Positions 14,979 to 42,037 of a DNA stretch of 45,020 nt are shown here, piece by piece. The DNA is from Candidatus Saccharimonadota bacterium. GTDB taxonomy: Bacteria; Patescibacteriota; Saccharimonadia; Saccharimonadales; JAICHO01. The DNA lies in NCBI GenBank assembly GCA_025924835.1, contig JAICHO010000004.1:1-45020 (forward strand). Direction: 5' to 3'. The notes under the pieces are model-generated. The model was not told the origin of the DNA and did not search any database. It saw nothing but the letters and a program-made list of their open reading frames with translations. Each line of letters starts with the position of its first letter. Position 1 is the stretch's first letter. A program made the translations under genes and the position numbers.

Positions 14979-15884
14979 ATGCCTGCGTTTAAGCCATACC
15001 CTTTTGCTTTTATACAAAATACGGTGAAGCCTATAGAGGAAGCCACCATATCTATCATGACCAACGCTCTGCATTATGGCGGCGGAATATTTGGTGGGCT
15101 TAAAGCATACGATACGCCCAAAGGCATGGGCATATTCAGACTTGACGATCACCTAGCTCGCATGCAGACTAGCGCCAAGATCTTACGATTCCCTTATACT
15201 TTTAATAACAAAGTAGTTAGTCAACAAATTATCGATCTTGCCACCAAAAATAAACTTACCGGGAAAACCTATATACGGCCTATCCTGTATCGCAGCGACA
15301 CCCAGCTCTCACCCGATATTTCTGGTGAATACGACTTGGCAATTTATATGCTAGAAATGACCGCGGATTATCTGGCTACTAGTGATGGGCTTTCGGTTTG
15401 TGTTTCATCCTGGCAGCGCAATAGTGATAACGCCTTGCCGCCACGTACCAAAGCCACGGGCGGATACTTAAATTCTGCACTTGCAATCCATGATGCCAAA
15501 CAAGGCGGTTACGATTCTGCCATTATGCTAAATCATCGTGGCGAAGTAAGTGAAGGCGCTGTTATGAATTTGTTCCTGGTAAAAAATGGCATGTTGGTTA
15601 CACCATCAATGGAAGCGGATATTTTAGAAGGCATAACCCGGCGTACGATTATGGAACTAGCAGTTGAACTGGGTATTTCTGTGCAGGAGCGTCCTGTCAG
15701 CCGCAGCGAACTTTATAGCGCAGACGAACTTTTCTTTTGCGGTACAGCTGTTGAGATATCGTGGTGCAAATCAGTAGACAATGTAGAAATCAGTGCCCAC
15801 ACAGGTCACATTACAGCCAAATTAACACAGGCCTTCGCCTCACTGCCCAAAACGCACCCTCATCTCTACACTTTATTGGGATAG
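14979..15884 (+). CDS. ilvE: Class IV PLP aminotransferase (IlvE-like), probably serving the Phe/Tyr transamination step
   Basis: ALHYGGGIFGGLKAY, FRLDDHLAR, KATGGYLNS, EGAVMNLF, ILEGITR, DELFFCGTA. Confidence 0.9.
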   Translation: MPAFKPYPFAFIQNTVKPIEEATISIMTNALHYGGGIFGGLKAYDTPKGMGIFRLDDHLARMQTSAKILRFPYTFNNKVVSQQIIDLATKNKLTGKTYIRPILYRSDTQLSPDISGEYDLAIYMLEMTADYLATSDGLSVCVSSWQRNSDNALPPRTKATGGYLNSALAIHDAKQGGYDSAIMLNHRGEVSEGAVMNLFLVKNGMLVTPSMEADILEGITRRTIMELAVELGISVQERPVSRSELYSADELFFCGTAVEISWCKSVDNVEISAHTGHITAKLTQAFASLPKTHPHLYTLLG

Positions 15885-35393: not shown

Positions 35394-36095
35394 ATGGGTG
35401 TATATAGTAATACGCAGATCAAGCAGGCTATCAAAGAGGGCCATATTATCTTTTTCCCTTACATCGAGCAACATATCGCTGGTAGCAGTGTAGATGTAAC
35501 ACTAGGGGATTGGTATTACCGCACGGAACGGCCCAGCGAAGGCGGGTTTTATAACCCTTTTGACGAGGCGGCCGTAAAACAGTACTTTGGCTCACCACTC
35601 CGAGCCGAGATTCACCATGAATGGGCGGAGAAACATGGGCGCAAGCCGTTTGCAAATATACCGCTCGACCACCGTATCATAGTCCTGCGGCCGCAAGAAC
35701 GAATACTCGGTCATACGCATGAGTTTATCGGTATTAAGGCGCCCGGCACAAGTACCATGCAGGCCCGTAGCACATGGGGGAGAAACGGCGTGGCAGTTTG
35801 TCTAGACGCTGGGTGGGGAGACCCAGGATATATAAACCGTTGGACAATGGAAATTTATAATATGAACCAGCACGAAAGCGTGGTTCTGCCGGTGGGCGAG
35901 CGGGTGGCGCAGATGGTTTTTTATGAAACAGGTCCCGTGGACAGCGAGTACAAAAAGCTAAGCGGTAAATATCAGCCAGGCGAGAGTGATGACCTGGATA
36001 ACATCATAGCCAGCTGGAAGCCCGAACAAATGCTACCACGCGCCTATAAGGATAAACGCCGTGTTCCTGAGGTAATAAAAGGTTTAAAAGCATGA
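35394..36095 (+). CDS. dcd: dCTP deaminase
   Basis: SVDVTLG, ARSTWGRNG, AGWGDPGY..WTMEIYN, RVAQMVF, GKYQ. Confidence 0.9.
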   Translation: MGVYSNTQIKQAIKEGHIIFFPYIEQHIAGSSVDVTLGDWYYRTERPSEGGFYNPFDEAAVKQYFGSPLRAEIHHEWAEKHGRKPFANIPLDHRIIVLRPQERILGHTHEFIGIKAPGTSTMQARSTWGRNGVAVCLDAGWGDPGYINRWTMEIYNMNQHESVVLPVGERVAQMVFYETGPVDSEYKKLSGKYQPGESDDLDNIIASWKPEQMLPRAYKDKRRVPEVIKGLKA

Positions 36096-38443
36096 TTGAC
36101 GCCAAAGAAGCCGCCAGGGAACGCGGCACATTTATTGTAATTGAGGGAACAGATGGGTCAGGCAAGGGCACGCAGTTTGCCAAGCTTGTGCAGCGGTTGG
36201 AGTCCGAGGGTTACGATGTTGTGACGTTTGATTTTCCGCTTTATGATGATCCGTCGTCATATTTTATTCAGCAGTATCTAAATGGCAAATATGGTAGTAG
36301 CAAAGAAGTCGGCCCATATACAGGTTCTCTATTTTTTGCCCTGAATCGCTACGACGCATCCTTTGCCATCCGTGATGCCCTAGATGCCGGCAAGATAGTA
36401 GTCGCCAATCGTTTTACTGGCAGCAATATGGCCCACCAGGGTGGTAAATTTGAACATGCCGAGGAACGGCGTGGATATTTTATCTGGGTGGATAATTTGG
36501 AATTTGAAATGCTCAAGATTCCGCGACCCGACAGGTCAATTGTACTCCGCATGCCGGCGGATATGGCCCAAAAACTGGTGGACAAAAAGCCTGCCCGCAG
36601 CTACACGGAGCACAAACGAGATCTTCATGAGGCCGATTTACATCATATGGAACGATCTGTTGAAGTGTACGACGATTTGTGCCAACTGTTTCCGAAAGAT
36701 TTTGTAAGGCTGGACTGCGTACGGGATGGCAAACTGCTGGACATAGATACTATACATGCTCTGCTTTGGCAAAATATTGAGCCTTTATTACCCGCTAAAC
36801 CAAAAAAGTCTAGTACTGCCGAGCTTAAAGCTGAAAAATCAGTTAAGTCCATTGTGGCCGATAACCCCTATATTAAAAAAACAAAGGCAGGTTATGAGAT
36901 AACAAAGGCTGGCGAGGAGTTTTTGGCCGAATGTGTCACCGATATTAGTGATAACGTTTATGCCTTTAATAGCAAGCTTGGTCCATTGACAGTTGCGGCG
37001 GCCATGGCTCGCTTATCGCGCCGTGGCGATGATATGCGCATTACTATTTTGGATGAATTCGCCGGTAATTTGGGTAAAGATGAGAAATTGTTACAACGGG
37101 TCATCACGGCATACGGCGATGATTCGGTCCAACAACTTGCCGGCGTGCATGTAGTGGTAGAGGGCGCGTCAAACATTTTGACCAAAAAACTAGAATGGGG
37201 GCGTCTGGGGGCATATCTGGAGCAGTCAACCCGATACATTTATCTAGATAAAAAAGATTCGGATGGCAACTATAGATACTACACGCCAGAACGCCTAGAT
37301 GCTAAGGCCAATAAAATCTACAGAATTGCCATGGATGAAATTTTTGATGAGTACTCAGATATGGTCCATAAAGTTACGGATTACGTCCGCAGCAACGACA
37401 AAACCCCTAAAAGCGAACAAGACATAGCGTGGCAGGGTGCTACGCGGGCTCAAGCCTGTGACGCCGTACGGCCGGTGCTGCCCGTGGCCACTAAATTAAC
37501 CGTTGGGATTTTTGCGTCCGGCCAGGCACTGGAAAGCCTAATCATGCACTTGTTAAGTGATGAGCTACAAGAAGCCCGTGAAACGGGTCAAAAAATCCTG
37601 GATCAGGCACGCCACGTTATCCCAGCACTACTGGAACGTGCCGACAAGCCAGACCGCGGTGGAGCTCTCATCGCATATCGTGCCAATAAACACCGTGAGA
37701 TGCGTGAGCTAGCCCAAAAGTATTTACCAGACACACACAGCACTTCGACAGAAGCCATTAGCCTGAATTCCTTTTGGCCACGTAACGAAACTGATTTAGT
37801 CCCCGACATGCTTTATGAACACAGCACTCTATCCCTCAAAGAATTACAGGATACGGTCAGCAAATGGCCGATCGCCAAAAAAGAAGAAGTCTTTGTTGCC
37901 TATATGGGTGAGCGCTTAAACCGGCGTCACAGGCCCGGACGAGCTTTAGAAAAAGCTCATTATAGCTGGGATTTATTGTGTGATTATGGCATCTTCCGCG
38001 ATCTGCAACGTCACCGTATGGTTGACGATATGGAATGGCAAACACTTACACCACGTTACGGATATGAAATACCACAACTCATAGAAGATGCCGGCTTAAG
38101 TGAACAATATGAAAAATGCTTTGAGCTAAGCTTAAAGCTACACAGCCACTTGCAGTCAGCAGGATATGAAGCCGAGGCGCAGTATACTACGCTTCTGGGC
38201 CACCGTATGCGCTGGAAAGTTACCTACAACGCGCGGGAGGCCTTTCACCTGCATGAGCTCCGCACCAGTCCGCAAGGCCACCCAGGCTACCGCAAGCTAG
38301 TTCAGCAAATGCACGAAAAGCTGGCCGAGGTTCATCCTATGATGGCCGAAGCCATGAAATTTGTGAATCAAGGTGAGGACGAAGCCCTGACACGTTTAGC
38401 TGCCGAACGCTACACTCAATTCAAGCTGCAACAGCTAAGCTAG
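36092..38443 (+). CDS. Fusion of thymidylate kinase with flavin-dependent thymidylate synthase (tandem ThyX-like domains)
   Basis: N-terminal FIVIEGTDGSGKGTQ and NRFTGSNMAHQG (Tmk); then YGDDSVQQL, EQSTRY, RPVLP, RDLQRHR, HELRT..QGH (ThyX). Confidence 0.9.
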   Translation: MIDAKEAARERGTFIVIEGTDGSGKGTQFAKLVQRLESEGYDVVTFDFPLYDDPSSYFIQQYLNGKYGSSKEVGPYTGSLFFALNRYDASFAIRDALDAGKIVVANRFTGSNMAHQGGKFEHAEERRGYFIWVDNLEFEMLKIPRPDRSIVLRMPADMAQKLVDKKPARSYTEHKRDLHEADLHHMERSVEVYDDLCQLFPKDFVRLDCVRDGKLLDIDTIHALLWQNIEPLLPAKPKKSSTAELKAEKSVKSIVADNPYIKKTKAGYEITKAGEEFLAECVTDISDNVYAFNSKLGPLTVAAAMARLSRRGDDMRITILDEFAGNLGKDEKLLQRVITAYGDDSVQQLAGVHVVVEGASNILTKKLEWGRLGAYLEQSTRYIYLDKKDSDGNYRYYTPERLDAKANKIYRIAMDEIFDEYSDMVHKVTDYVRSNDKTPKSEQDIAWQGATRAQACDAVRPVLPVATKLTVGIFASGQALESLIMHLLSDELQEARETGQKILDQARHVIPALLERADKPDRGGALIAYRANKHREMRELAQKYLPDTHSTSTEAISLNSFWPRNETDLVPDMLYEHSTLSLKELQDTVSKWPIAKKEEVFVAYMGERLNRRHRPGRALEKAHYSWDLLCDYGIFRDLQRHRMVDDMEWQTLTPRYGYEIPQLIEDAGLSEQYEKCFELSLKLHSHLQSAGYEAEAQYTTLLGHRMRWKVTYNAREAFHLHELRTSPQGHPGYRKLVQQMHEKLAEVHPMMAEAMKFVNQGEDEALTRLAAERYTQFKLQQLS

Positions 38444-38840
38444 GTGCGACCGGATTTCTCTGAGCCCAATAGGAAACAAACGCGGCATTTCCAGGCAGGT
38501 CCTCAACGGTGATTACCTGCCGAAGAATATAGCCCAGGCTAGTCGTAAATACTGTTTCTGAATCAGAATCAACATATTCAACATCGTTTAAGCCTAAAGC
38601 GTCTAATAAACCGATGTGAGCAGTTTGGCTTTGAGCTTCGTTCGGATAATTAACCCTAAATGCGAACTGTAGCCCGTGATTGCCTTCAGTATTACCCGGT
38701 ATTTCTCCCTGCAGATACGCCAAGAAGTCACCGGCCTTTCTCATGCCTATTTCATAGGCGGCTCTTATTTCCTTTTCTTCACGCTGTGAATAATTCTGCC
38801 CGGGAATTTCCTGTAATCGTGTTTCGTATGTCAAGCTCAT
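38421..38840 (-). CDS. Orphan 139-aa acidic protein, first gene downstream of the minus-strand attenuator
   Basis: ATG 19 nt after the terminator U-tract; C-terminus ...SLAVAA; overlaps the tmk-thyX 3' end by 23 nt. Confidence 0.65.
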   Translation of the reverse strand: MSLTYETRLQEIPGQNYSQREEKEIRAAYEIGMRKAGDFLAYLQGEIPGNTEGNHGLQFAFRVNYPNEAQSQTAHIGLLDALGLNDVEYVDSDSETVFTTSLGYILRQVITVEDLPGNAAFVSYWAQRNPVAPSLAVAA

Positions 38841-38859
38841 GTTATTTACTCTTGTATTT

Positions 38860-38893
38860 AAAAAACCGGACTCCTTTGGTTGGAGTCCGGTTT
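38860..38893 (-). terminator. Intrinsic terminator of the minus-strand attenuator
   Basis: Minus strand reads AAACCGGACTCC-aaccaaa-GGAGTCCGG-TTTTTT. Confidence 0.9.
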
Positions 38894-38938
38894 GTTTGAT
38901 TTCTTGTTTTATTTAGTGTGTGATGCGGGACTCCAACC

Positions 38939-39004
38939 TCATTTAATAATCATCACAAAAGCCCACTTGCGGCTTTGGAGATGCATATAAACGGTTTGGA
39001 GCAT
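38939..39004 (-). CDS. Putative attenuator leader peptide (21 aa), specificity uncertain
   Basis: MLQTVYMHLQSRKWAFVMIIK*. The stop codon abuts an 11-nt antiterminator strand (38928-38) complementary to the terminator 5' arm and loop (38878-88). Confidence 0.7.
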   Translation of the reverse strand: MLQTVYMHLQSRKWAFVMIIK

Positions 39005-39020
39005 TTTTATCACGCATAAA

Positions 39021-39049
39021 ACTTTATGCTTTGTCGGCGGCCTTGTCAA
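39021..39049 (-). promoter_or_regulatory. Sigma70-type promoter TTGACA-N17-TAAAGT
   Basis: Reverse complement of 39021-39049; consensus -35 and 17-nt spacer. Confidence 0.8.
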
Positions 39050-39058
39050 GTGCTTTTA

Positions 39059-39087
39059 TTGACAACAAAAAAGCCATGGGTTATAAA
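39059..39087 (+). promoter_or_regulatory. Sigma70-type promoter TTGACA-N17-TATAAA
   Basis: Back-to-back with the minus-strand promoter; the two -35 boxes are 9 nt apart. Confidence 0.75.
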
Positions 39088-39088
39088 C

Positions 39089-39169
39089 ATGATTGTGAAT
39101 AGTTTCAACTTTCTGAAGCAGCTTCTTCTCAGCCTATACGGGCTGTGCTTCAGCATAGTTGAAGCCTAG
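39089..39169 (+). CDS. Leucine-rich attenuator leader peptide
   Basis: MIVNSFNFLKQLLLSLYGLCFSIVEA*, with 6 Leu (CTT-CTT-CTC-x-CTA). The in-frame GTG at 39095 may be the true leaderless start. Protector 39138-49 : 39189-200; antiterminator 39158-67 : 39206-15. Confidence 0.8.
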   Translation: MIVNSFNFLKQLLLSLYGLCFSIVEA

Positions 39170-39201
39170 CCCCGATTTATCGGGGCCCAGCACAGTCCGT
39201 C

Positions 39202-39230
39202 AATCAGGCTTCAACAGGGTCTGATTTTTT
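39202..39230 (+). terminator. Intrinsic terminator of the Leu attenuator
   Basis: AATCAGGC...GTCTGATT followed by TTTT. Confidence 0.8.
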
Positions 39231-39252
39231 AATTTAATCTAGGAAACTAATT

Positions 39253-39471
39253 ATGACAGATACGGAATTAGGTATTTTAAGTAAGAACTTGCCAGTTGTG
39301 AGTGCGGCAGAGGCCGCAACAGCGCGGTTTGAAGAAACTTTCGGACGTTTCTATGGAGCCCAGCCGAGATGCGGCGTTGCTGTGGTTTATTTTGCAGGAA
39401 CAGAAGGTATTATGGATACACCAGACGAGCGGCCGCCAGTAAACGATTTTATGGCCAATATGATACCTTGA
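39253..39471 (+). CDS. Orphan 72-aa protein downstream of the Leu attenuator
   Basis: AGGA SD; ATG 22 nt after the terminator; no recognisable motif. Confidence 0.6.
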   Translation: MTDTELGILSKNLPVVSAAEAATARFEETFGRFYGAQPRCGVAVVYFAGTEGIMDTPDERPPVNDFMANMIP

Positions 39472-39496
39472 CAAATAACAATACTAGGAGCACTAT
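39468..39496 (+). promoter_or_regulatory. Putative promoter TTGACA-N17-CACTAT
   Basis: Consensus -35 overlapping the upstream stop codon; the -10 ends 6 nt before the leader ATG. Confidence 0.6.
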
Positions 39497-39502
39497 CAAA
39501 AC

Positions 39503-39559
39503 ATGACTCGGAACATTATTCTCGTGGTGATTACGACCCCACGCGGCGCGCGGTTCTGA
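39503..39559 (+). CDS. ilv-type attenuator leader peptide (Ile/Leu/Val/Thr)
   Basis: MTRNIILVVITTPRGARF*. Protector CTCGGAAC 39507-14 : GTTCTGAG 39553-60. Antiterminator GTTCTG 39553-58 : CAGAAC 39576-81 plus CGCGG : CCGCG 39586-90. Confidence 0.9.
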   Translation: MTRNIILVVITTPRGARF

Positions 39560-39578
39560 GAACGCATACAAAAACCAG

Positions 39579-39610
39579 AACGGCCCCGCGAAATCGGGGT
39601 CGTTTTATTT
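39579..39610 (+). terminator. Intrinsic terminator of the ilv attenuator
   Basis: AACGGCCCCG-cgaaat-CGGGGTCGTT followed by TTATTT. Confidence 0.88.
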
Positions 39611-39639
39611 TGGCAACCAGTAACCACTAGGAGGAGACA

Positions 39640-39957
39640 ATGAGTAGCAACAATTCCAGGTCATCGTGGCGAGAAAGAGTTCCGGCCATCGTTCCTGAAG
39701 ACAACAGTTATCTAGCCCTATCATTTGAAGAACGGTTAACCACCACCATAGCAGGTGACCCGCTTGGTGGCTACCGTGGCCTGGGTTGTCACGCAATGCT
39801 GCTGACCGAAGAATTTGCCGCGCGGGAGCACGCCGCTATGCAAGCTCAAACAATCGGCGTCGCCGCGTCGCAAGAACCTGGAGGCGCCACATTAGTAGAT
39901 GGTTTGGTCGCGGAAGTGGAATCATACCTTGATCAACAAGGTGCTCGGGTTTCATGA
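39640..39957 (+). CDS. Orphan 105-aa protein, first gene of the ilv-attenuated unit
   Basis: Strong AGGAGGA SD; stop overlaps the ridA start (ATGA). Confidence 0.7.
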   Translation: MSSNNSRSSWRERVPAIVPEDNSYLALSFEERLTTTIAGDPLGGYRGLGCHAMLLTEEFAAREHAAMQAQTIGVAASQEPGGATLVDGLVAEVESYLDQQGARVS

Positions 39958-40313
39958 CAACCTACGGTCCTTACACTCCCCTGAGACAGGCTGGGAACAT
40001 CTACTTCGTTTCCGGGCAGGTAGGTATACATGCAGACACGCAGATAGCAGCCAAAGATATCAGCAGCCAAACCGCCCAAGCGCTGGATAATCTTAAAGAC
40101 CTGCTGGCTCAAAATGGTCTCGGTATGGAGAACGTAGTCAAAACTACGATTTATTTAAAAAATATGGCAGACTTTGATGATATGAATACGACATACCTGA
40201 CGTACTTTACAGAGCCCAGACCGGCACGGTCCAGCGTAGAAGTAGCTGGGCTCCCTCGGCTGGCAGAAAATGAACTGCTCATAGAAATAGAGGCCGTTGT
40301 CTACAGACCATGA
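39954..40313 (+). CDS. ridA: RidA/YjgF family enamine deaminase
   Basis: GPYTP, FVSGQV, VVKTTIYL, RPARSSVEV..LP...IEIEAV. Confidence 0.92.
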   Translation: MTTYGPYTPLRQAGNIYFVSGQVGIHADTQIAAKDISSQTAQALDNLKDLLAQNGLGMENVVKTTIYLKNMADFDDMNTTYLTYFTEPRPARSSVEVAGLPRLAENELLIEIEAVVYRP

Positions 40314-41809
40314 CTGATGCGCTAAGGCAAACATTATTAGCCAGGGTTTACGATGCAGCCGTTGAAACACCTTTAGAATTAGCCCGCCATATTAGCGCCG
40401 AAACCGGCAATAACATCTATTTAAAACGTGAGGATTTACAGCCAGTACATTCCTTTAAGCTTCGGGGAGCTTACAATAAAATTGCCCATTTGTCTGCGAA
40501 GGAACGATCAAAAGGCGTTATAGCTGCCAGTGCCGGTAACCATGCTCAAGGCGTAGCGCTTAGCGCCAAAAAATTAGGTATACCTGCTGTAATTGTTATG
40601 CCAAAAACCACTCCCGAGATCAAGACCAATGCCGTACTTAGCTATGGAGCAAAGGTTGTATTGTTTGGTGACAATTACACTGAAGCATATGATCATTGCC
40701 AATCACTTATTAAAAAAACCGGCATGGTTTTTATTCACCCCTTTGATGACGCACTGGTTATAGCTGGCCAGGGTACGGTCGGACGCGAAATTCTGGAACA
40801 ATTGCCTGATACTTCACATATATTTATCCCGGTTGGGGGTGGTGGATTGCTTGGAGGTATTGCCCAGTACGTTAAAGAGCTACGTCCAGACATAAAAATC
40901 ATAGGCGTTGAACCGGACGACAGTAACGCTATGCAAATGTCTTTAAAAGCTGGCAAACGAATAATTTTGCCACACGTCGGCATTTTTGCTGATGGCGTGG
41001 CCGTAAAGCAAGTCGGTGAACGCACCTTTAAGCTGGCCCAACAATATGTAGACGATGTCATAACCGTCAACAATGATCAGCTTTGCGCGGCTATTAAATC
41101 GATATTTGAGGAAACGCGCAGCATCACGGAACCGGCTGGAGCTTTGGCAGTAGCCGGAGCAATAGTTTATGCCAAAACCCATAAGCTGCAAGGCAAAAAT
41201 CTAGTCACCATTTGTTCTGGCGCTAACATGACCTTTGAAAAACTGCAGTTTATAGCCGAACGGACCCTACTTGGAAGTGGTAAGGAAGCCTTATTTGCTG
41301 TTACCCTGGCCGAACAGCCCGGTGCGTTGCAGCGCTTTTGCGACGAGGTAGTCAATGGGCACAGTATTACTGAATTTAGCTATCGTTTGCATGATAGAAA
41401 TCAGGCACGTATTTTTGTAGGAATTACGGTAAACGGGTCGCTGGATAGATTACAATTTATTAAAAAAATGACGAGACACGGCTACGAATACGAGGACTTG
41501 ACATACGATGAAACTGCCAAAGAGCATGTTCGTCATATGATTGGCGGTCCGAGTTCGCTGACGCGCCATGAGCATGTATATCAGATCAACTTTCCGGAAC
41601 GGCCTGGCGCCTTAGGTGTTTTTTTACAAACTGTCGGTGATCAATGGAATATTTGTCTGTTCCATTACCGGGGCCAGGGCGGTGACATTGGCAAAGTACT
41701 AATCGGCTTTGAAGCCACCAGCAAGACCGAGCTAGAAACGCGTCTAAAGAAAATAGGCTATGAATTTGAGCCCATAGTTTCAAAAGCTATGGATATATTT
41801 CTGCACTAG
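40310..41809 (+). CDS. ilvA: Biosynthetic threonine ammonia-lyase with two C-terminal regulatory domains
   Basis: LKREDLQPVHSFKLRGA, ASAGNHAQG, GGGGL, FADGVAV, FPERPGAL, LFHYR. Confidence 0.97.
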   Translation: MTDALRQTLLARVYDAAVETPLELARHISAETGNNIYLKREDLQPVHSFKLRGAYNKIAHLSAKERSKGVIAASAGNHAQGVALSAKKLGIPAVIVMPKTTPEIKTNAVLSYGAKVVLFGDNYTEAYDHCQSLIKKTGMVFIHPFDDALVIAGQGTVGREILEQLPDTSHIFIPVGGGGLLGGIAQYVKELRPDIKIIGVEPDDSNAMQMSLKAGKRIILPHVGIFADGVAVKQVGERTFKLAQQYVDDVITVNNDQLCAAIKSIFEETRSITEPAGALAVAGAIVYAKTHKLQGKNLVTICSGANMTFEKLQFIAERTLLGSGKEALFAVTLAEQPGALQRFCDEVVNGHSITEFSYRLHDRNQARIFVGITVNGSLDRLQFIKKMTRHGYEYEDLTYDETAKEHVRHMIGGPSSLTRHEHVYQINFPERPGALGVFLQTVGDQWNICLFHYRGQGGDIGKVLIGFEATSKTELETRLKKIGYEFEPIVSKAMDIFLH

Positions 41810-41838: not shown

Positions 41839-41867
41839 TTGATTAACTGTAAGAGAACAGGTATACT
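41839..41867 (+). promoter_or_regulatory. rplJL promoter TTGATT-N17-TATACT
   Basis: Near-consensus elements immediately upstream of the L10 leader. Confidence 0.75.
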
Positions 41868-41876
41868 TACAGGGTT

Positions 41877-41989
41877 ACCAAAGACAGCGACGGCTATGAC
41901 AAGCTTGATAATGTCGCCTAGGTGCAAACTTACAGTTTATTTTTGTTTGTGAGCGCATAAGACCTTTGGATAACACCAAAGGTCTTTTT
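41877..41989 (+). promoter_or_regulatory. L10 leader (L10(L12)n-binding RNA) with terminator hairpin
   Basis: CCAAAGACAGCGAC...ATAATGTCGCCTAGG resembles the AAGACAG...UAA...AGG L10-leader core. Followed by AAGACCTTTGG-ataaca-CCAAAGGTCTT-TTT (41959-89). Confidence 0.75.
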
Positions 41990-42037
41990 GGTACCAAAAC
42001 CGGCATGGTCGATCGGTTTAAAAACTTAGGAGAAATT

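What the first reader, a model, noticed from the sequence alone, without database searches (positions are those of the whole stretch)
38860..39957. Array of three leader-peptide attenuators, each gating a small orphan gene: a possible amino-acid sensing panel
Seen in sequence: about 800 bp contains three separate cassettes, each of the form TTGACA-N17 promoter, 18-26 aa leader ORF, mutually exclusive helices, intrinsic terminator, then an ORF of unknown function (139, 72 and 105 aa). The leaders differ: W/F/V/M/I, Leu-rich, and Ile/Leu/Val/Thr-rich. Established: this architecture is classical ribosome-mediated attenuation (trpL, leuL, ilvL), which normally precedes biosynthetic operons in Proteobacteria, Actinobacteria and Bacteroidota. 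Inference: in a largely auxotrophic CPR epibiont these could read out charged-tRNA levels, i.e. host nutrient supply, and switch on uncharacterised small proteins. Alternatively they are relics of leu/ilv/met operons whose enzymes were lost or displaced. I am not aware of attenuators described in Saccharibacteria, but could not search the literature.
Basis: partly seen in the sequence, partly recalled or inferred. Interest (0 to 1): 0.9.

Follow-up and report, generated by a model that had tools for sequence, protein, structure and literature searches.

The report
Three amino-acid attenuators in Saccharibacteria
A tiny parasitic-type bacterium carries three classic "stalled-ribosome" switches for leucine, isoleucine and a third, less certain signal; relatives that have lost the matching biosynthetic genes still keep them, so they may act as nutrient sensors.

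Summary
Window 38856-39613 holds three cassettes. Each has a TTGACA-17-nt promoter, a short ORF starting 6-7 nt after the -10 (so probably leaderless), mutually exclusive helices and an intrinsic terminator.

- Cassette A lies on the minus strand, divergent from B.
- Cassette C (Ile/Val/Thr-rich leader) gates orf105, then RidA, then biosynthetic threonine deaminase IlvA.
- Cassette B (Leu-run leader) sits directly before a LeuA-like gene in 11 of 30 IlvA-positive relatives.

Evidence from relatives in the same order (Saccharimonadales by source labels):
- B occurs in 60 of 129 genomes examined, and in 0 outside the order.
- Both of B's alternative structures covary.
- C-type leaders are 24% Ile.
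- B leaders carry about 4.5 Leu in 10 codons, mostly the rare codon CTC. They switch to Ile where B alone precedes ilvA.
- The array persists in genomes without ilvA or leuA. There it gates only small, fast-evolving ORFs that are poor in the sensed amino acid (Leu 4.9% against 9.8%).

I read this as classical ribosome-mediated attenuation in a new lineage, partly re-used as a starvation sensor. No expression data were available.

The parts
39021..39049 (-). Cassette A promoter: -35 TTGACA (39049-39044), 17 nt spacer, -10 TAAAGT (39026-39021)
   Evidence: The same spacing recurs in 12 relatives, with a GTG start 7-8 nt after the -10.
38939..39013 (-). Cassette A leader ORF, GTG start, 24 codons plus stop (VIKMLQTVYMHLQSRKWAFVMIIK)
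   Evidence: The reading frame is kept in 20 leaders. The stop lies 0-5 nt before the antiterminator strand in 10 of 12 (by eye). Ile is 11.9% against 6.6% background.
38926..38938 (-). Cassette A antiterminator strand (GGTTGGAGTCCCG). It pairs with the 5' half and loop of the terminator.
   Evidence: RNAalifold predicts this helix. 11 pairs, 95.4% paired, 4 pairs with changes on both sides (that alignment was fitted to this helix).
38856..38893 (-). Cassette A intrinsic terminator (12-bp stem) and T-run
38421..38840 (-). orf139, cargo of A. It belongs to a small uncharacterised family.
   Evidence: No Pfam or NCBIfam match. pN 0.146 against pS 0.674 versus G001. Four distant homologues of 117-129 aa. 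AF2 pLDDT 77.7 with no significant fold match.
39059..39087 (+). Cassette B promoter: TTGACA, 17 nt, TATAAA
   Evidence: In all 30 aligned B elements the chosen start codon lies 6-10 nt after the best-scoring -10 (start chosen by that promoter score).
39095..39169 (+). Cassette B leader ORF (VNSFNFLKQLLLSLYGLCFSIVEA). Leu control codons are at 39122-39136.
   Evidence: G001 lacks the upstream ATG but keeps the GTG.
39140..39198 (+). Cassette B closed (terminating) fold: P1 (39140-39148 with 39190-39198), hairpin 1:2 (39149-39153 with 39159-39163) and a variable hairpin (39170-39185)
   Evidence: 17 pairs, 94.5% paired, 9 pairs with changes on both sides, 0 of 500 shuffles as high
39158..39215 (+). 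Cassette B antiterminator: GTTGAAGCCT (39158-39167) pairs with AGGCTTCAAC (39206-39215)
   Evidence: 10 pairs, 94.2% paired, 6 pairs with changes on both sides, 0 of 500 shuffles as high. This helix was not part of the search model.
39202..39233 (+). Cassette B intrinsic terminator and T-run
39253..39471 (+). orf72, cargo of B. It is a short member of a small protein family with a PY[SAT]GTE motif that is found after B in at least 9 genomes.
   Evidence: Leu is 4.2%.
39468..39496 (+). Cassette C promoter: TTGACA, 17 nt, CACTAT. It overlaps the end of orf72.
39503..39559 (+). Cassette C leader ORF (MTRNIILVVITTPRGARF). Control codons I-I-L-V-V-I-T-T are at 39515-39538.
39534..39613 (+). Cassette C antiterminator (39534-39602) overlapping the terminator (39578-39605) and T-run
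   Evidence: Fold with a ribosome mask: stalling at Ile5-6 gives an antiterminator of -33.0 kcal/mol. With no ribosome, or with the ribosome at the stop, the terminator forms.
39640..39957 (+). orf105, first gene after C. It is restricted to this genus and its stop overlaps the ridA start.
   Evidence: pN 0.386, pS 0.727
39954..40313 (+). ridA (Rid family imine deaminase)
   Evidence: PF01042 at 6.6e-30. TIGR00004 at 110 bits, cut-off 106.
40310..41809 (+). ilvA, biosynthetic threonine ammonia-lyase with two C-terminal regulatory domains
   Evidence: PALP plus 2 x Thr_dehydrat_C. TIGR01124 at 700.7 bits, cut-off 411.3.

Best explanation
The locus holds three ribosome-mediated (leader-peptide) transcription attenuators. 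Each appears to be transcribed from its own sigma-70-type promoter as a leaderless or nearly leaderless short ORF.

How each one is proposed to work: a ribosome that slows on the control codons leaves the antiterminator strand free to pair with the 5' half of the terminator, so RNA polymerase reads through. A ribosome that runs on to the stop codon covers that strand, so the terminator forms.

- C senses isoleucine and controls orf105-ridA-ilvA.
- B senses leucine. In relatives it controls a LeuA-like synthase. In this genome no leuA was found and B controls the small Leu-poor protein orf72, probably reading on into C.
- A is a divergent, possibly paralogous cassette with a conserved 23-34 codon peptide. 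Its sensed signal is uncertain, with Ile the best guess. It controls orf139.

The array is a conserved module of this order between thyX and rplJ. It is kept even where ilvA and leuA were not found. I therefore infer that it now also serves as a read-out of branched-chain aminoacyl-tRNA charging that switches on small lineage-specific proteins.

Shown here: the sequence architecture, conservation, covariation, codon statistics and gene context. Inferred: transcription start sites, translation of the leaders, termination in vivo, and the function of the cargo proteins.
For: 1. Anatomy in the window.
- Promoter, start codon 6-7 nt after the -10, short ORF, alternative helices and terminator are present for all three cassettes.

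2. Cassette C.
- 23 of 33 ilvA loci from relatives carry a short ORF plus terminator directly before ilvA, ridA-ilvA or orfX-ridA-ilvA.
- These leaders were picked by promoter score and terminator adjacency, not by composition. They hold 90 Ile in 382 codons against a 6.6% background, and 21 of 24 have two or more consecutive Ile.
- In a co-transcriptional folding test, a ribosome placed on Ile codons allows the antiterminator at 78 of 90 codons. At the stop codon it does so in 3 of 24.

3. Cassette B.
- The covariance model finds it in 30 of 49 IlvA-positive and 30 of 80 IlvA-negative genomes of the order. In a phylum-wide sample of 151 it hits only 2, both from this order.
- The antiterminator and the competing closed fold both show compensatory changes, with 0 of 500 shuffles as high.
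- All 30 aligned leaders have a start codon 6-10 nt after the best-scoring -10, the start having been chosen by that promoter score. They carry on average 4.5 Leu in the 10 codons before the first helix.
- Leu at positions -4 and -2 is kept in 29 of 30 through synonymous codons. The rare codon CTC (8% of Leu codons genome-wide) makes up 57 of 136.
- The first gene after B is LeuA-like in 11 of 30.
- In the four loci where B is the only attenuator before ilvA (G282, G376, G374, G003), the control region carries 2-3 Ile. Only 1 of the other 26 has 2 or more.

4. Cassette A.
- It always lies divergent from and next to B.
- The GTG start is fixed at the promoter. From the sequences I read the stop as abutting the antiterminator strand in 10 of 12.
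- The antiterminator is conserved and covaries.

5. The cargo genes are real.
- Against G001, pN versus pS is 0.146/0.674 for orf139, 0.162/0.595 for orf72 and 0.386/0.727 for orf105. RidA is 0.147/0.752.

6. The cargo is poor in the sensed amino acid.
- ORFs after B: Leu 132 of 2716 (4.9%) against 9.8% background, and odds ratio 0.50 against the A and C cargo.
- ORFs after C: Ile 63 of 1473 (4.3%) against 6.6%.

7. The array persists without the enzymes.
- Of 12 IlvA-negative loci, 11 have B followed by a small ORF, 7 have A and 6 have an Ile-rich C leader followed by a small ORF and then rplJ.
Against: - There are no expression data. No RNA run was listed, so start sites, leader translation and 3' ends at the terminators are untested.
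- In an equilibrium (minimum free energy) version of the stalling test, the terminator stayed the most stable fold in most elements wherever the ribosome was placed. The support comes only from the co-transcriptional version.
- In that version 17 of 24 C elements also form the antiterminator with no ribosome at all, unlike the classical trp 'superattenuation' picture.
- For B in the window, a ribosome stalled on the LLL triplet itself did not open the 1:2 hairpin in the fold. Only a stall one or two codons further on, at CTA, did.
- The A leader has no run of one amino acid. Its peptide and nucleotides are both conserved, so a peptide-specific or purely RNA-based mechanism is not excluded.
- KARI, DHAD, acetolactate-synthase-type and LeuA-type domains were not found in this 95%-complete genome. 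IlvA therefore cannot complete isoleucine synthesis here by the standard route, and the physiological sense of an Ile attenuator on it is unclear.
- Genomes are related, so all p-values overstate independence.
- ORFs in relatives were called by a simple first-start rule.
Confidence: 0.75

Rival explanations
1. Relics. The cassettes are decaying leftovers of a lost leu/ilv operon, and the small ORFs after them are accidental open frames or genes that are not regulated by them.
For: - B precedes a LeuA-like gene in 11 of 30 relatives, and this genome has no HMGL-family hit.
- The small ORFs are mostly singletons by BLAST.
- orf105 evolves fast (pN 0.386).
Against: - B keeps its Leu run, both alternative folds and its terminator in 30 of 80 genomes without ilvA, with compensatory changes.
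- C-type Ile leaders persist in 6 of 12 such loci.
- orf139 and orf72 are as constrained as RidA.
- The cargo is specifically poor in the sensed amino acid.
- No leuA remnant was detectable between B and C.
Confidence: 0.08
2. Structured RNA switches that do not depend on translation, such as a riboswitch or a protein- or tRNA-binding leader. On this view the short ORFs are incidental.
For: - B's three-way junction (GGGCTGTGC...GCACAGCC) is nearly invariant across families, more than simple helices need.
- The A element shows strong nucleotide-level conservation around TTTGTGC.
- 17 of 24 C elements can form the antiterminator with no ribosome.
Against: - In all 30 B, 24 C and 20 A elements the frame is open from a start codon at a fixed distance from the promoter to a stop at or just before the antiterminator strand.
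- Leu positions vary synonymously.
- Control codons change from Leu to Ile exactly where the regulated gene is ilvA.
- Ile makes up 24% of the C leaders, although those leaders share little nucleotide sequence.
- No Rfam family matched at its gathering score.
Confidence: 0.1
3. For cassette A only: the conserved leader (consensus ending ...YGFV-x-I-x-K) acts through its amino-acid sequence, either as an arrest peptide or as a functional micropeptide, rather than by counting codons of one amino acid.
For: - The peptide is conserved across 20 genomes without a homopolymeric run. Ile is only 1.8-fold enriched, and Leu and Val are not enriched.
- In two genomes the Leu of V-L-I is replaced by Arg.
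Against: - The same codons are conserved at the nucleotide level (GTG CTC). Peptide-level selection is therefore not separable from RNA-level selection. The hairpin I proposed to explain this was not supported by covariation.
- The boundary at which a ribosome starts to block the antiterminator falls right after the V-L-I-V block, as in C.
- The A cargo is somewhat Ile-poor (5.1% against 6.6%).
Confidence: 0.15

Closest known systems
Classical leader-peptide attenuators of enterobacterial amino-acid operons (trpL, leuL, ilvL/ivbL, thrL, pheL, hisL). The model is recalled from textbook knowledge; the Rfam leader families were tested.
   Same: - Short ORF with clustered control codons for the pathway's end product.
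- Mutually exclusive antiterminator and terminator helices.
- Stop codon placed so that a finishing ribosome blocks the antiterminator.
- Use of a rare codon for the control positions (CTC here; rare CUA in E. coli leuL is recalled).
- C sits before ilvA, and B sits before a LeuA-like gene in relatives.
   Different: - There is no sequence-level membership. No Rfam leader family reaches its gathering score. The best is RF02744 at 26 bits against 88, then Phe_leader at 18.7 against 55.
- The leaders appear leaderless, with no Shine-Dalgarno site.
- Three separate single-specificity cassettes stand in tandem or divergent, instead of one multivalent ilv leader.
- The cassettes persist in genomes in which the cognate enzymes were not found.
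Leaderless attenuators of Actinobacteria: Corynebacterium glutamicum ilvBNC leader IlvL and the leader peptides before leuA, trpE and aroF (PMC11857589, passages read; PMC3890552, passages read; PMC1262725, abstract and passages read)
   Same: - The transcript starts at or one nucleotide before the leader start codon, with no ribosome-binding site. This is reported for C. glutamicum ilvBNC in PMC11857589, citing Morbach 2000.
- The leader is a 15-24 codon branched-chain-rich peptide followed by a terminator.
- A Leu-run upstream ORF stands before leuA.
   Different: - The start sites here are only inferred from promoter spacing.
- No sequence homology was tested or seen.
- The actinobacterial leuA 'LEU element' is described as a pseudoknot that sequesters the Shine-Dalgarno site, whereas B is a terminator/antiterminator switch.
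- The organism here is a roughly 1-Mb Saccharimonadales genome in which most of the pathway was not found.
Leucine-rich attenuator peptide of Staphylococcus aureus ilv-leu (PMC5794164, seen only in a search listing)
   Same: A Leu-codon leader controls branched-chain amino-acid genes.
   Different: Not examined beyond the title and the start of the abstract, so no comparison of structure was made.

Membership tests
Ribosome-mediated (leader-peptide) transcription attenuator | Short translatable leader ORF upstream of the regulated gene | tested here: met
   The frames are open with an ATG or GTG start at a fixed distance from a promoter in 30 B, 24 C and 20 A elements. Translation itself was not shown.
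Ribosome-mediated (leader-peptide) transcription attenuator | Cluster of control codons for one amino acid | tested here: met
   B has 136 Leu in 300 codons, and 23 of 30 leaders contain LLL. C has 90 Ile in 382 codons, and 21 of 24 leaders contain II. For A the test is inconclusive, with Ile at only 11.9%.
Ribosome-mediated (leader-peptide) transcription attenuator | Intrinsic terminator between the leader and the gene | tested here: met
Ribosome-mediated (leader-peptide) transcription attenuator | Antiterminator helix mutually exclusive with the terminator and supported by covariation | tested here: met
   B: (helix not in the search model). A: (alignment fitted to the helix). C: single-sequence folds only, because the C elements are too diverse to align.
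Ribosome-mediated (leader-peptide) transcription attenuator | Geometry: stalling at the control codons frees the antiterminator, and a ribosome at the stop blocks it | tested here: inconclusive
   The co-transcriptional fold test agrees, with 78 of 90 Ile codons permissive against 3 of 24 stop codons (for A). The equilibrium test does not discriminate. For B in the window the permissive stall site lies one or two codons after LLL.
Ribosome-mediated (leader-peptide) transcription attenuator | The regulated genes belong to the pathway of the sensed amino acid | tested here: inconclusive
   Met for C (ilvA). Met for B in 11 of 30 relatives, where the gene is LeuA-like. The best NCBIfam hits are 2-isopropylmalate synthase models, but all fall below their cut-offs, e.g. 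244 against 532 bits. Not met for B and A in this window, nor in IlvA-negative genomes.
Ribosome-mediated (leader-peptide) transcription attenuator | Read-through depends on leader translation and on amino-acid supply in vivo | not testable with these tools
Rfam amino-acid leader families (Leu_leader, Thr_leader, Trp_leader, His_leader, Phe_leader; the family names other than Phe_leader are recalled) | Score at or above the family's gathering threshold | tested here: not met
   There was no hit in 38780-39700 at gathering score. In E-value mode the best was RF02744 at 26.2 bits (threshold 88), then Phe_leader at 18.7 (threshold 55).
Leaderless attenuators of the C. glutamicum IlvL type | Transcription start at or within a few nucleotides of the leader start codon, with no ribosome-binding site | tested here: inconclusive
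   The spacing from the -10 to the start codon is 6-9 nt in the 24 C leaders (selected for a gap of 5-9 nt). It is 6-10 nt in 30 B (start chosen by promoter score) and 7-8 nt in A. The start sites are not mapped.
Biosynthetic threonine ammonia-lyase IlvA (TIGR01124) | Score above the curated cut-off, with a PLP domain plus two regulatory domains | tested here: met
   700.7 bits against a cut-off of 411.3. PALP plus 2 x Thr_dehydrat_C.

The most novel reading that the evidence does not exclude
Saccharimonadales carry a conserved sensor of branched-chain aminoacyl-tRNA charging, built from two or three classical attenuators. Leu and Ile are clear; the third channel is uncertain. In lineages where the biosynthetic genes were not found, the sensor has been kept and re-used. 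When host-derived Leu or Ile runs short it switches on small, fast-evolving proteins that are themselves poor in the limiting amino acid. That would be a starvation signal of an auxotrophic epibiont, possibly directed at the host interaction.
Probability: 0.4. Interest if true: 0.85.

Novelty: new variant of a known kind. Interest (0 to 1): 0.7.

Why it matters
Almost nothing is known about gene regulation in Saccharibacteria and the rest of the Candidate Phyla Radiation.

- This would be the first attenuation system I could find described for them. My full-text searches found none.
- It shows that a textbook mechanism, until now tied to biosynthetic operons, can outlive the pathway it served.
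- If the small Leu-poor and Ile-poor proteins are truly induced by low tRNA charging, the locus gives a direct handle on how an obligate epibiont perceives nutrient supply from its host. It also names the proteins it deploys in response.
- It gives annotators a covariance model for a widespread element, found in 60 of 129 genomes of the order examined here.

Tried and rejected
- **Equilibrium stalling simulation.** The terminator remained the minimum-energy fold for most stall positions, so this version does not discriminate. I replaced it with a co-transcriptional version.
- **A-element hairpin.** A hairpin (AAGCAC with GTGCTT) that I proposed to explain the conserved C-terminal codons of the A leader is mostly conserved rather than covarying, and it is poor in the window itself. 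I do not claim it.
- **Thr control for A.** Thr runs occur in only a few A leaders, and Thr is not enriched overall.
- **leuA remnant.** tblastn of the 67 downstream ORFs collected from the relatives' loci, 11 of them LeuA-like, against 38400-40000 found no LeuA-like match in the window.
- **orf139 function.**
  - No Pfam or NCBIfam match, and no usable hit in the ESM Atlas.
  - The word-index search found only the G001 orthologue.
  - The exhaustive profile search gave 10 hits. Four are small proteins that align along their length, and the long multi-stretch hits were not followed.
  - The first AF2 model was unusable (pLDDT 38.7). The second was usable (77.7), but Foldseek's best E-value was 0.07 and VIA-align's best Z was 4.4.
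  - The family profile was found in no other genome of the 401 sampled.
- **orf72 family.** 10 clusters in the 5.8-billion-sequence collection, none named and none with a Pfam domain.
- **orf105.** No homologue outside G001 among the local sets.
- **Expression.** The look-up of sequencing runs (kind rna) listed no RNA holder.
- **Supplements.** Supplementary files of papers were not consulted because they are closed. Lists of predicted attenuators in, for example, PMC2965389 (seen only as a listing) could bear on the novelty claim.


Full report
**What is in the sequence**

The window is contig C4 of a 1,008,761-bp, 51-contig genome that is 95% complete. Its nearest IlvA relatives are labelled by their sources as Candidatus Saccharimonadales or Patescibacteria and sit on contigs of about 0.85-1.1 Mb. 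One related locus is titled Candidatus Saccharibacteria. The contig of the same-genus genome G001 is titled Limnocylindrales, which I take to be a binning label.

The gene order around the finding is as follows:
- a thymidylate-kinase/ThyX fusion at 36092-38443 (+);
- orf139 at 38840-38421 (-);
- the 800-bp control region;
- orf72 at 39253-39471;
- orf105 at 39640-39957;
- ridA at 39954-40313;
- ilvA at 40310-41809;
- an Rfam L10 leader at 41860-41999, then rplJ and rplL.

ridA and ilvA pass curated cut-offs, TIGR00004 at 110 against 106 bits and TIGR01124 at 700.7 against 411.3. orf105, ridA and ilvA overlap by ATGA junctions, so they form one translational unit.

**The three cassettes** (coordinates fixed)

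A lies on the minus strand:
- TTGACA, 17 nt, TAAAGT, 7 nt, then GTG at 39013.
- A 24-codon ORF ending at 38939.
- The strand GGTTGGAGTCCCG (38938-38926) is complementary to the 5' half and loop of the terminator at 38893-38863.

B lies on the plus strand:
- TTGACA (39059), 17 nt, TATAAA, 7 nt, then GTG at 39095.
- A 24-codon ORF with L-L-L-S-L at 39122-39136.
- A closed three-helix fold at 39140-39198.
- GTTGAAGCCT (39158-39167) is complementary to AGGCTTCAAC (39206-39215), which lies inside the terminator at 39202-39226.

C lies on the plus strand:
- TTGACA (39468), 17 nt, CACTAT, 6 nt, then ATG at 39503.
- An 18-codon ORF, MTRNIILVVITTPRGARF.
- Terminator at 39578-39605.

For C I folded the RNA with ribosome masks:
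- The free RNA forms a 1:2 helix plus the terminator (-38.9 kcal/mol).
- A ribosome on Ile5-6 gives an antiterminator that consumes both terminator strands (-33.0).
- A ribosome at the stop restores the terminator.

For B, a stall at the CTA Leu codon opens the 1:2 hairpin and gives the antiterminator. A stall on the LLL triplet does not. Rfam has nothing here at gathering scores and only weak sub-threshold echoes of enterobacterial leaders.

**Cassette C is an isoleucine attenuator of ilvA**

IlvA was found in 49 of 401 sampled genomes of the order. I examined 1.5 kb upstream of ilvA in 33 of these loci.
- An automatic search used only promoter score (perfect or near-perfect TTGACA, 16-17 nt spacer, -10, then 5-9 nt to an ATG or GTG; 6-9 nt in those found) and adjacency to a terminator. 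It recovered 24 C-type leaders in 23 loci.
- They stand directly before ilvA (5), ridA (10) or a small ORF that precedes ridA or ilvA (9).
- They share little nucleotide sequence, yet they carry 90 Ile in 382 codons against a 6.6% proteome background. 21 of 24 have at least two consecutive Ile. Examples are MTCAIIIEIIEETPTRA and MTKSMIIDIIIRTPTRG.
- Ten loci lacked C. Three of these had only B, and seven had no attenuator-like element within 1.5 kb.
- In a co-transcriptional folding test the RNA was folded up to the terminator loop with a 29-nt ribosome footprint. The antiterminator could form with the ribosome on 78 of 90 Ile codons, on 178 of 316 other sense codons and on 3 of 24 stop codons. 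The permissive zone ends right after the Ile block.
- The equilibrium version of this test was uninformative.

**Cassette B is a leucine attenuator, ancestrally of a LeuA-like gene**

I built a covariance model from 10 sequences.
- It finds B in 30 of 49 IlvA-positive genomes and in 30 of 80 IlvA-negative genomes of the order.
- In a phylum-wide sample of 151 it hits only 2, both from this order.
- On the 30-sequence alignment, the antiterminator helix was not part of the model. It is paired in 94.2% of cells and has 6 of 10 pairs with changes on both sides.
- The competing closed fold (17 pairs) is 94.5% paired, with 9 such pairs.
- No shuffle of 500 reaches either value, and slid registers pair at 49% or less.
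- In all 30 aligned B leaders the start codon, picked as the in-frame start with the best promoter score, lies 6-10 nt after that -10.
- The 10 codons before the first helix hold on average 4.5 Leu.
- Leu at positions -4 and -2 is kept in 29 of 30 through CTC, CTA or CTT. CTC is 8% of Leu codons genome-wide but supplies 57 of the 136 Leu codons. Rare control codons are a known trait of attenuators (recalled).
- The first gene after B is a LeuA-like synthase in 11 of 30. Its best matches are 2-isopropylmalate synthase models, all below their curated cut-offs.
- In the four loci where B is the sole attenuator before ilvA (G282, G376, G374, G003; three lineages), the control region carries 2-3 Ile. 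Only 1 of the other 26 has 2 or more.

Control codons that track the regulated gene are hard to explain unless the ORF is read by ribosomes.

**Cassette A**

The A model finds 13 of 49 IlvA-positive genomes and 6 of the 12 fetched IlvA-negative loci. A seventh was found by the promoter, ORF and terminator script.
- A always lies 40-60 nt from B and is divergent from it.
- The A model also touches one B element weakly (E = 4.8e-4), so the two may be paralogues.
- All A elements have a start codon (GTG in 19 of 20) 7-8 nt after the -10. The conserved 23-34-codon peptide has a consensus ending ...YGFV-L-I-V-x-K.
- Reading the sequences, I place the stop 0-5 nt before the antiterminator strand in 10 of 12.
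- The antiterminator is 95.4% paired, with 4 pairs changed on both sides. That alignment was fitted to this helix.
- The ribosome-blocking boundary falls right after the V-L-I-V block.
- Composition is only mildly skewed. Ile is 11.9% and Met 5.1%, and Leu and Val are not enriched.

What A senses is therefore uncertain.

**The genes behind the switches**

- orf139, orf72 and orf105 have no Pfam or NCBIfam match.
- Against G001 (IlvA 81% identical) synonymous sites are saturated, but non-synonymous divergence is low. orf139 is at 0.146, orf72 at 0.162, orf105 at 0.386 and RidA at 0.147. They are real genes.
- orf72 belongs to a small family with a PY[S/A/T]GTE motif. This family follows B in at least 9 of 42 loci, in genomes both with and without ilvA. 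It has only 10 unnamed clusters in 5.8 billion proteins.
- orf139 has four distant small homologues, and a confident AF2 model (pLDDT 77.7) that matches no solved fold convincingly.
- Most other cargo ORFs are singletons.
- ORFs after B contain 4.9% Leu (132 of 2716) against 9.8% in the proteome and 9.3% in the A and C cargo (odds ratio 0.50).
- ORFs after C contain 4.3% Ile against 6.6%.
- The A cargo has 5.1% Ile with normal Leu and Val.

Depletion of the limiting amino acid is what one expects of proteins that must be made during that limitation. The precedent for biosynthetic enzymes is recalled.

**Relic or sensor?**

- This genome has IlvA, RidA and two class-IV transaminases, one of them a curated branched-chain transaminase at 14979-15884.
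- It has no match to KARI, DHAD, the TPP_enzyme_C domain (PF02775) of acetolactate-synthase-type enzymes, or HMGL/LeuA domains.
- KARI was found in only 14 of 401 genomes of the order, 11 of them IlvA-positive. So 38 of 49 IlvA-positive genomes lack a detectable KARI.
- In the 12 IlvA-negative loci examined, the layout is thyX, A, B, small ORF(s), often C plus another small ORF, then rplJ-rplL. 11 of 12 have B followed by a small ORF, and 6 of 12 keep an Ile-rich C leader such as MPQNQIIIVSIIAPDMRV.

Intact control codons, covarying helices and terminators across many genera without the enzymes argue against simple decay. I therefore favour retention for a present function. That function would be control of the small proteins, plus ilvA where present, by tRNA charging.

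**Literature**

- Full-text searches for Saccharibacteria with attenuation or leader peptide, and for Patescibacteria with transcription attenuation, returned nothing relevant.
- One 2026 preprint notes threonine dehydratase genes enriched in a Saccharimonadia genus, without discussing regulation (one passage).
- The closest described systems are the leaderless attenuators of Actinobacteria. For C. glutamicum ilvBNC the start site is one nucleotide from the leader start codon and there is no ribosome-binding site. Leader peptides are also reported before leuA, trpE and aroF.

**Limits**

- There are no transcript data.
- The genomes are related, so the statistics overstate independence.
- The background composition comes from this genome only.
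- ORFs in relatives were called by a simple rule.
- Counts that include the unpublished genome G034 are listed in the steps-to-tell paragraph.

**Verdict**

The 'orphan-only' description is wrong for C. The sensing-panel idea is strengthened by comparative data. I place it as a new variant of a known mechanism in an unexplored lineage, with interest 0.7.

Noticed in passing
G000 contig C33, minus strand, leader start 8998 (locus L165): A fourth cassette of the same build: TTGACA, 16 nt, TAGGCT, 6 nt, ATG. The 22-codon ORF contains K-L-V-I-V. A GGGGGAG stretch in the ORF is complementary to the terminator's 5' strand. It is followed by a 76-aa ORF with no Pfam match.
   Followed up: partly
G000 contig C1, minus strand, leader start 50714 (locus L164): A fifth cassette: TTGACA, 16 nt, TATAAT, 7 nt, ATG. 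The 24-codon ORF ends in C-P-C-N-C, and an antiterminator-like stretch is complementary to the terminator. It is followed by a 156-aa ORF with no Pfam match. This could be a cysteine-type attenuator.
   Followed up: partly
window 36092-38443 (+): A single 783-aa ORF fuses a thymidylate kinase domain to a duplicated ThyX (Thy1) domain. It converges on orf139 and overlaps its 3' end by 23 bp, so read-through from cassette A would be antisense to it.
   Followed up: no
window 41860-41999 (+): An Rfam L10 leader (53 bits, gathering score 44) lies directly after ilvA and before rplJ. In genomes without ilvA the attenuator array sits immediately upstream of this leader. Whether read-through reaches rplJL was not examined.
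   Followed up: no
window 14979-15884 (+) and G000 C21:10278-10928: Two class-IV aminotransferase genes. The one in the window passes the curated branched-chain transaminase model. KARI, DHAD, TPP_enzyme_C and HMGL domains were not found in the genome.
   Followed up: partly
L163 (G058 C8:24552-24719): The covariance model for cassette A weakly matches a cassette B element (E = 4.8e-4). The core motifs GTTGGAG and GTTGAAG are alike. A and B may be diverged duplicates.
   Followed up: no
L012 (contig titled Candidatus Limnocylindrales bacterium): The same-genus relative of this genome (IlvA 81% identical, identical locus layout) carries a Chloroflexota-type label in its public title. This is probably a binning or labelling error.
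   Followed up: no
L013-L061: The nearest IlvA sequences outside the order are about 55-58% identical. They come from Desulfuromonadaceae, Desulfobulbaceae and Acidithiobacillus, not from Actinobacteria. The origin of the gene was not analysed by a tree.
   Followed up: no
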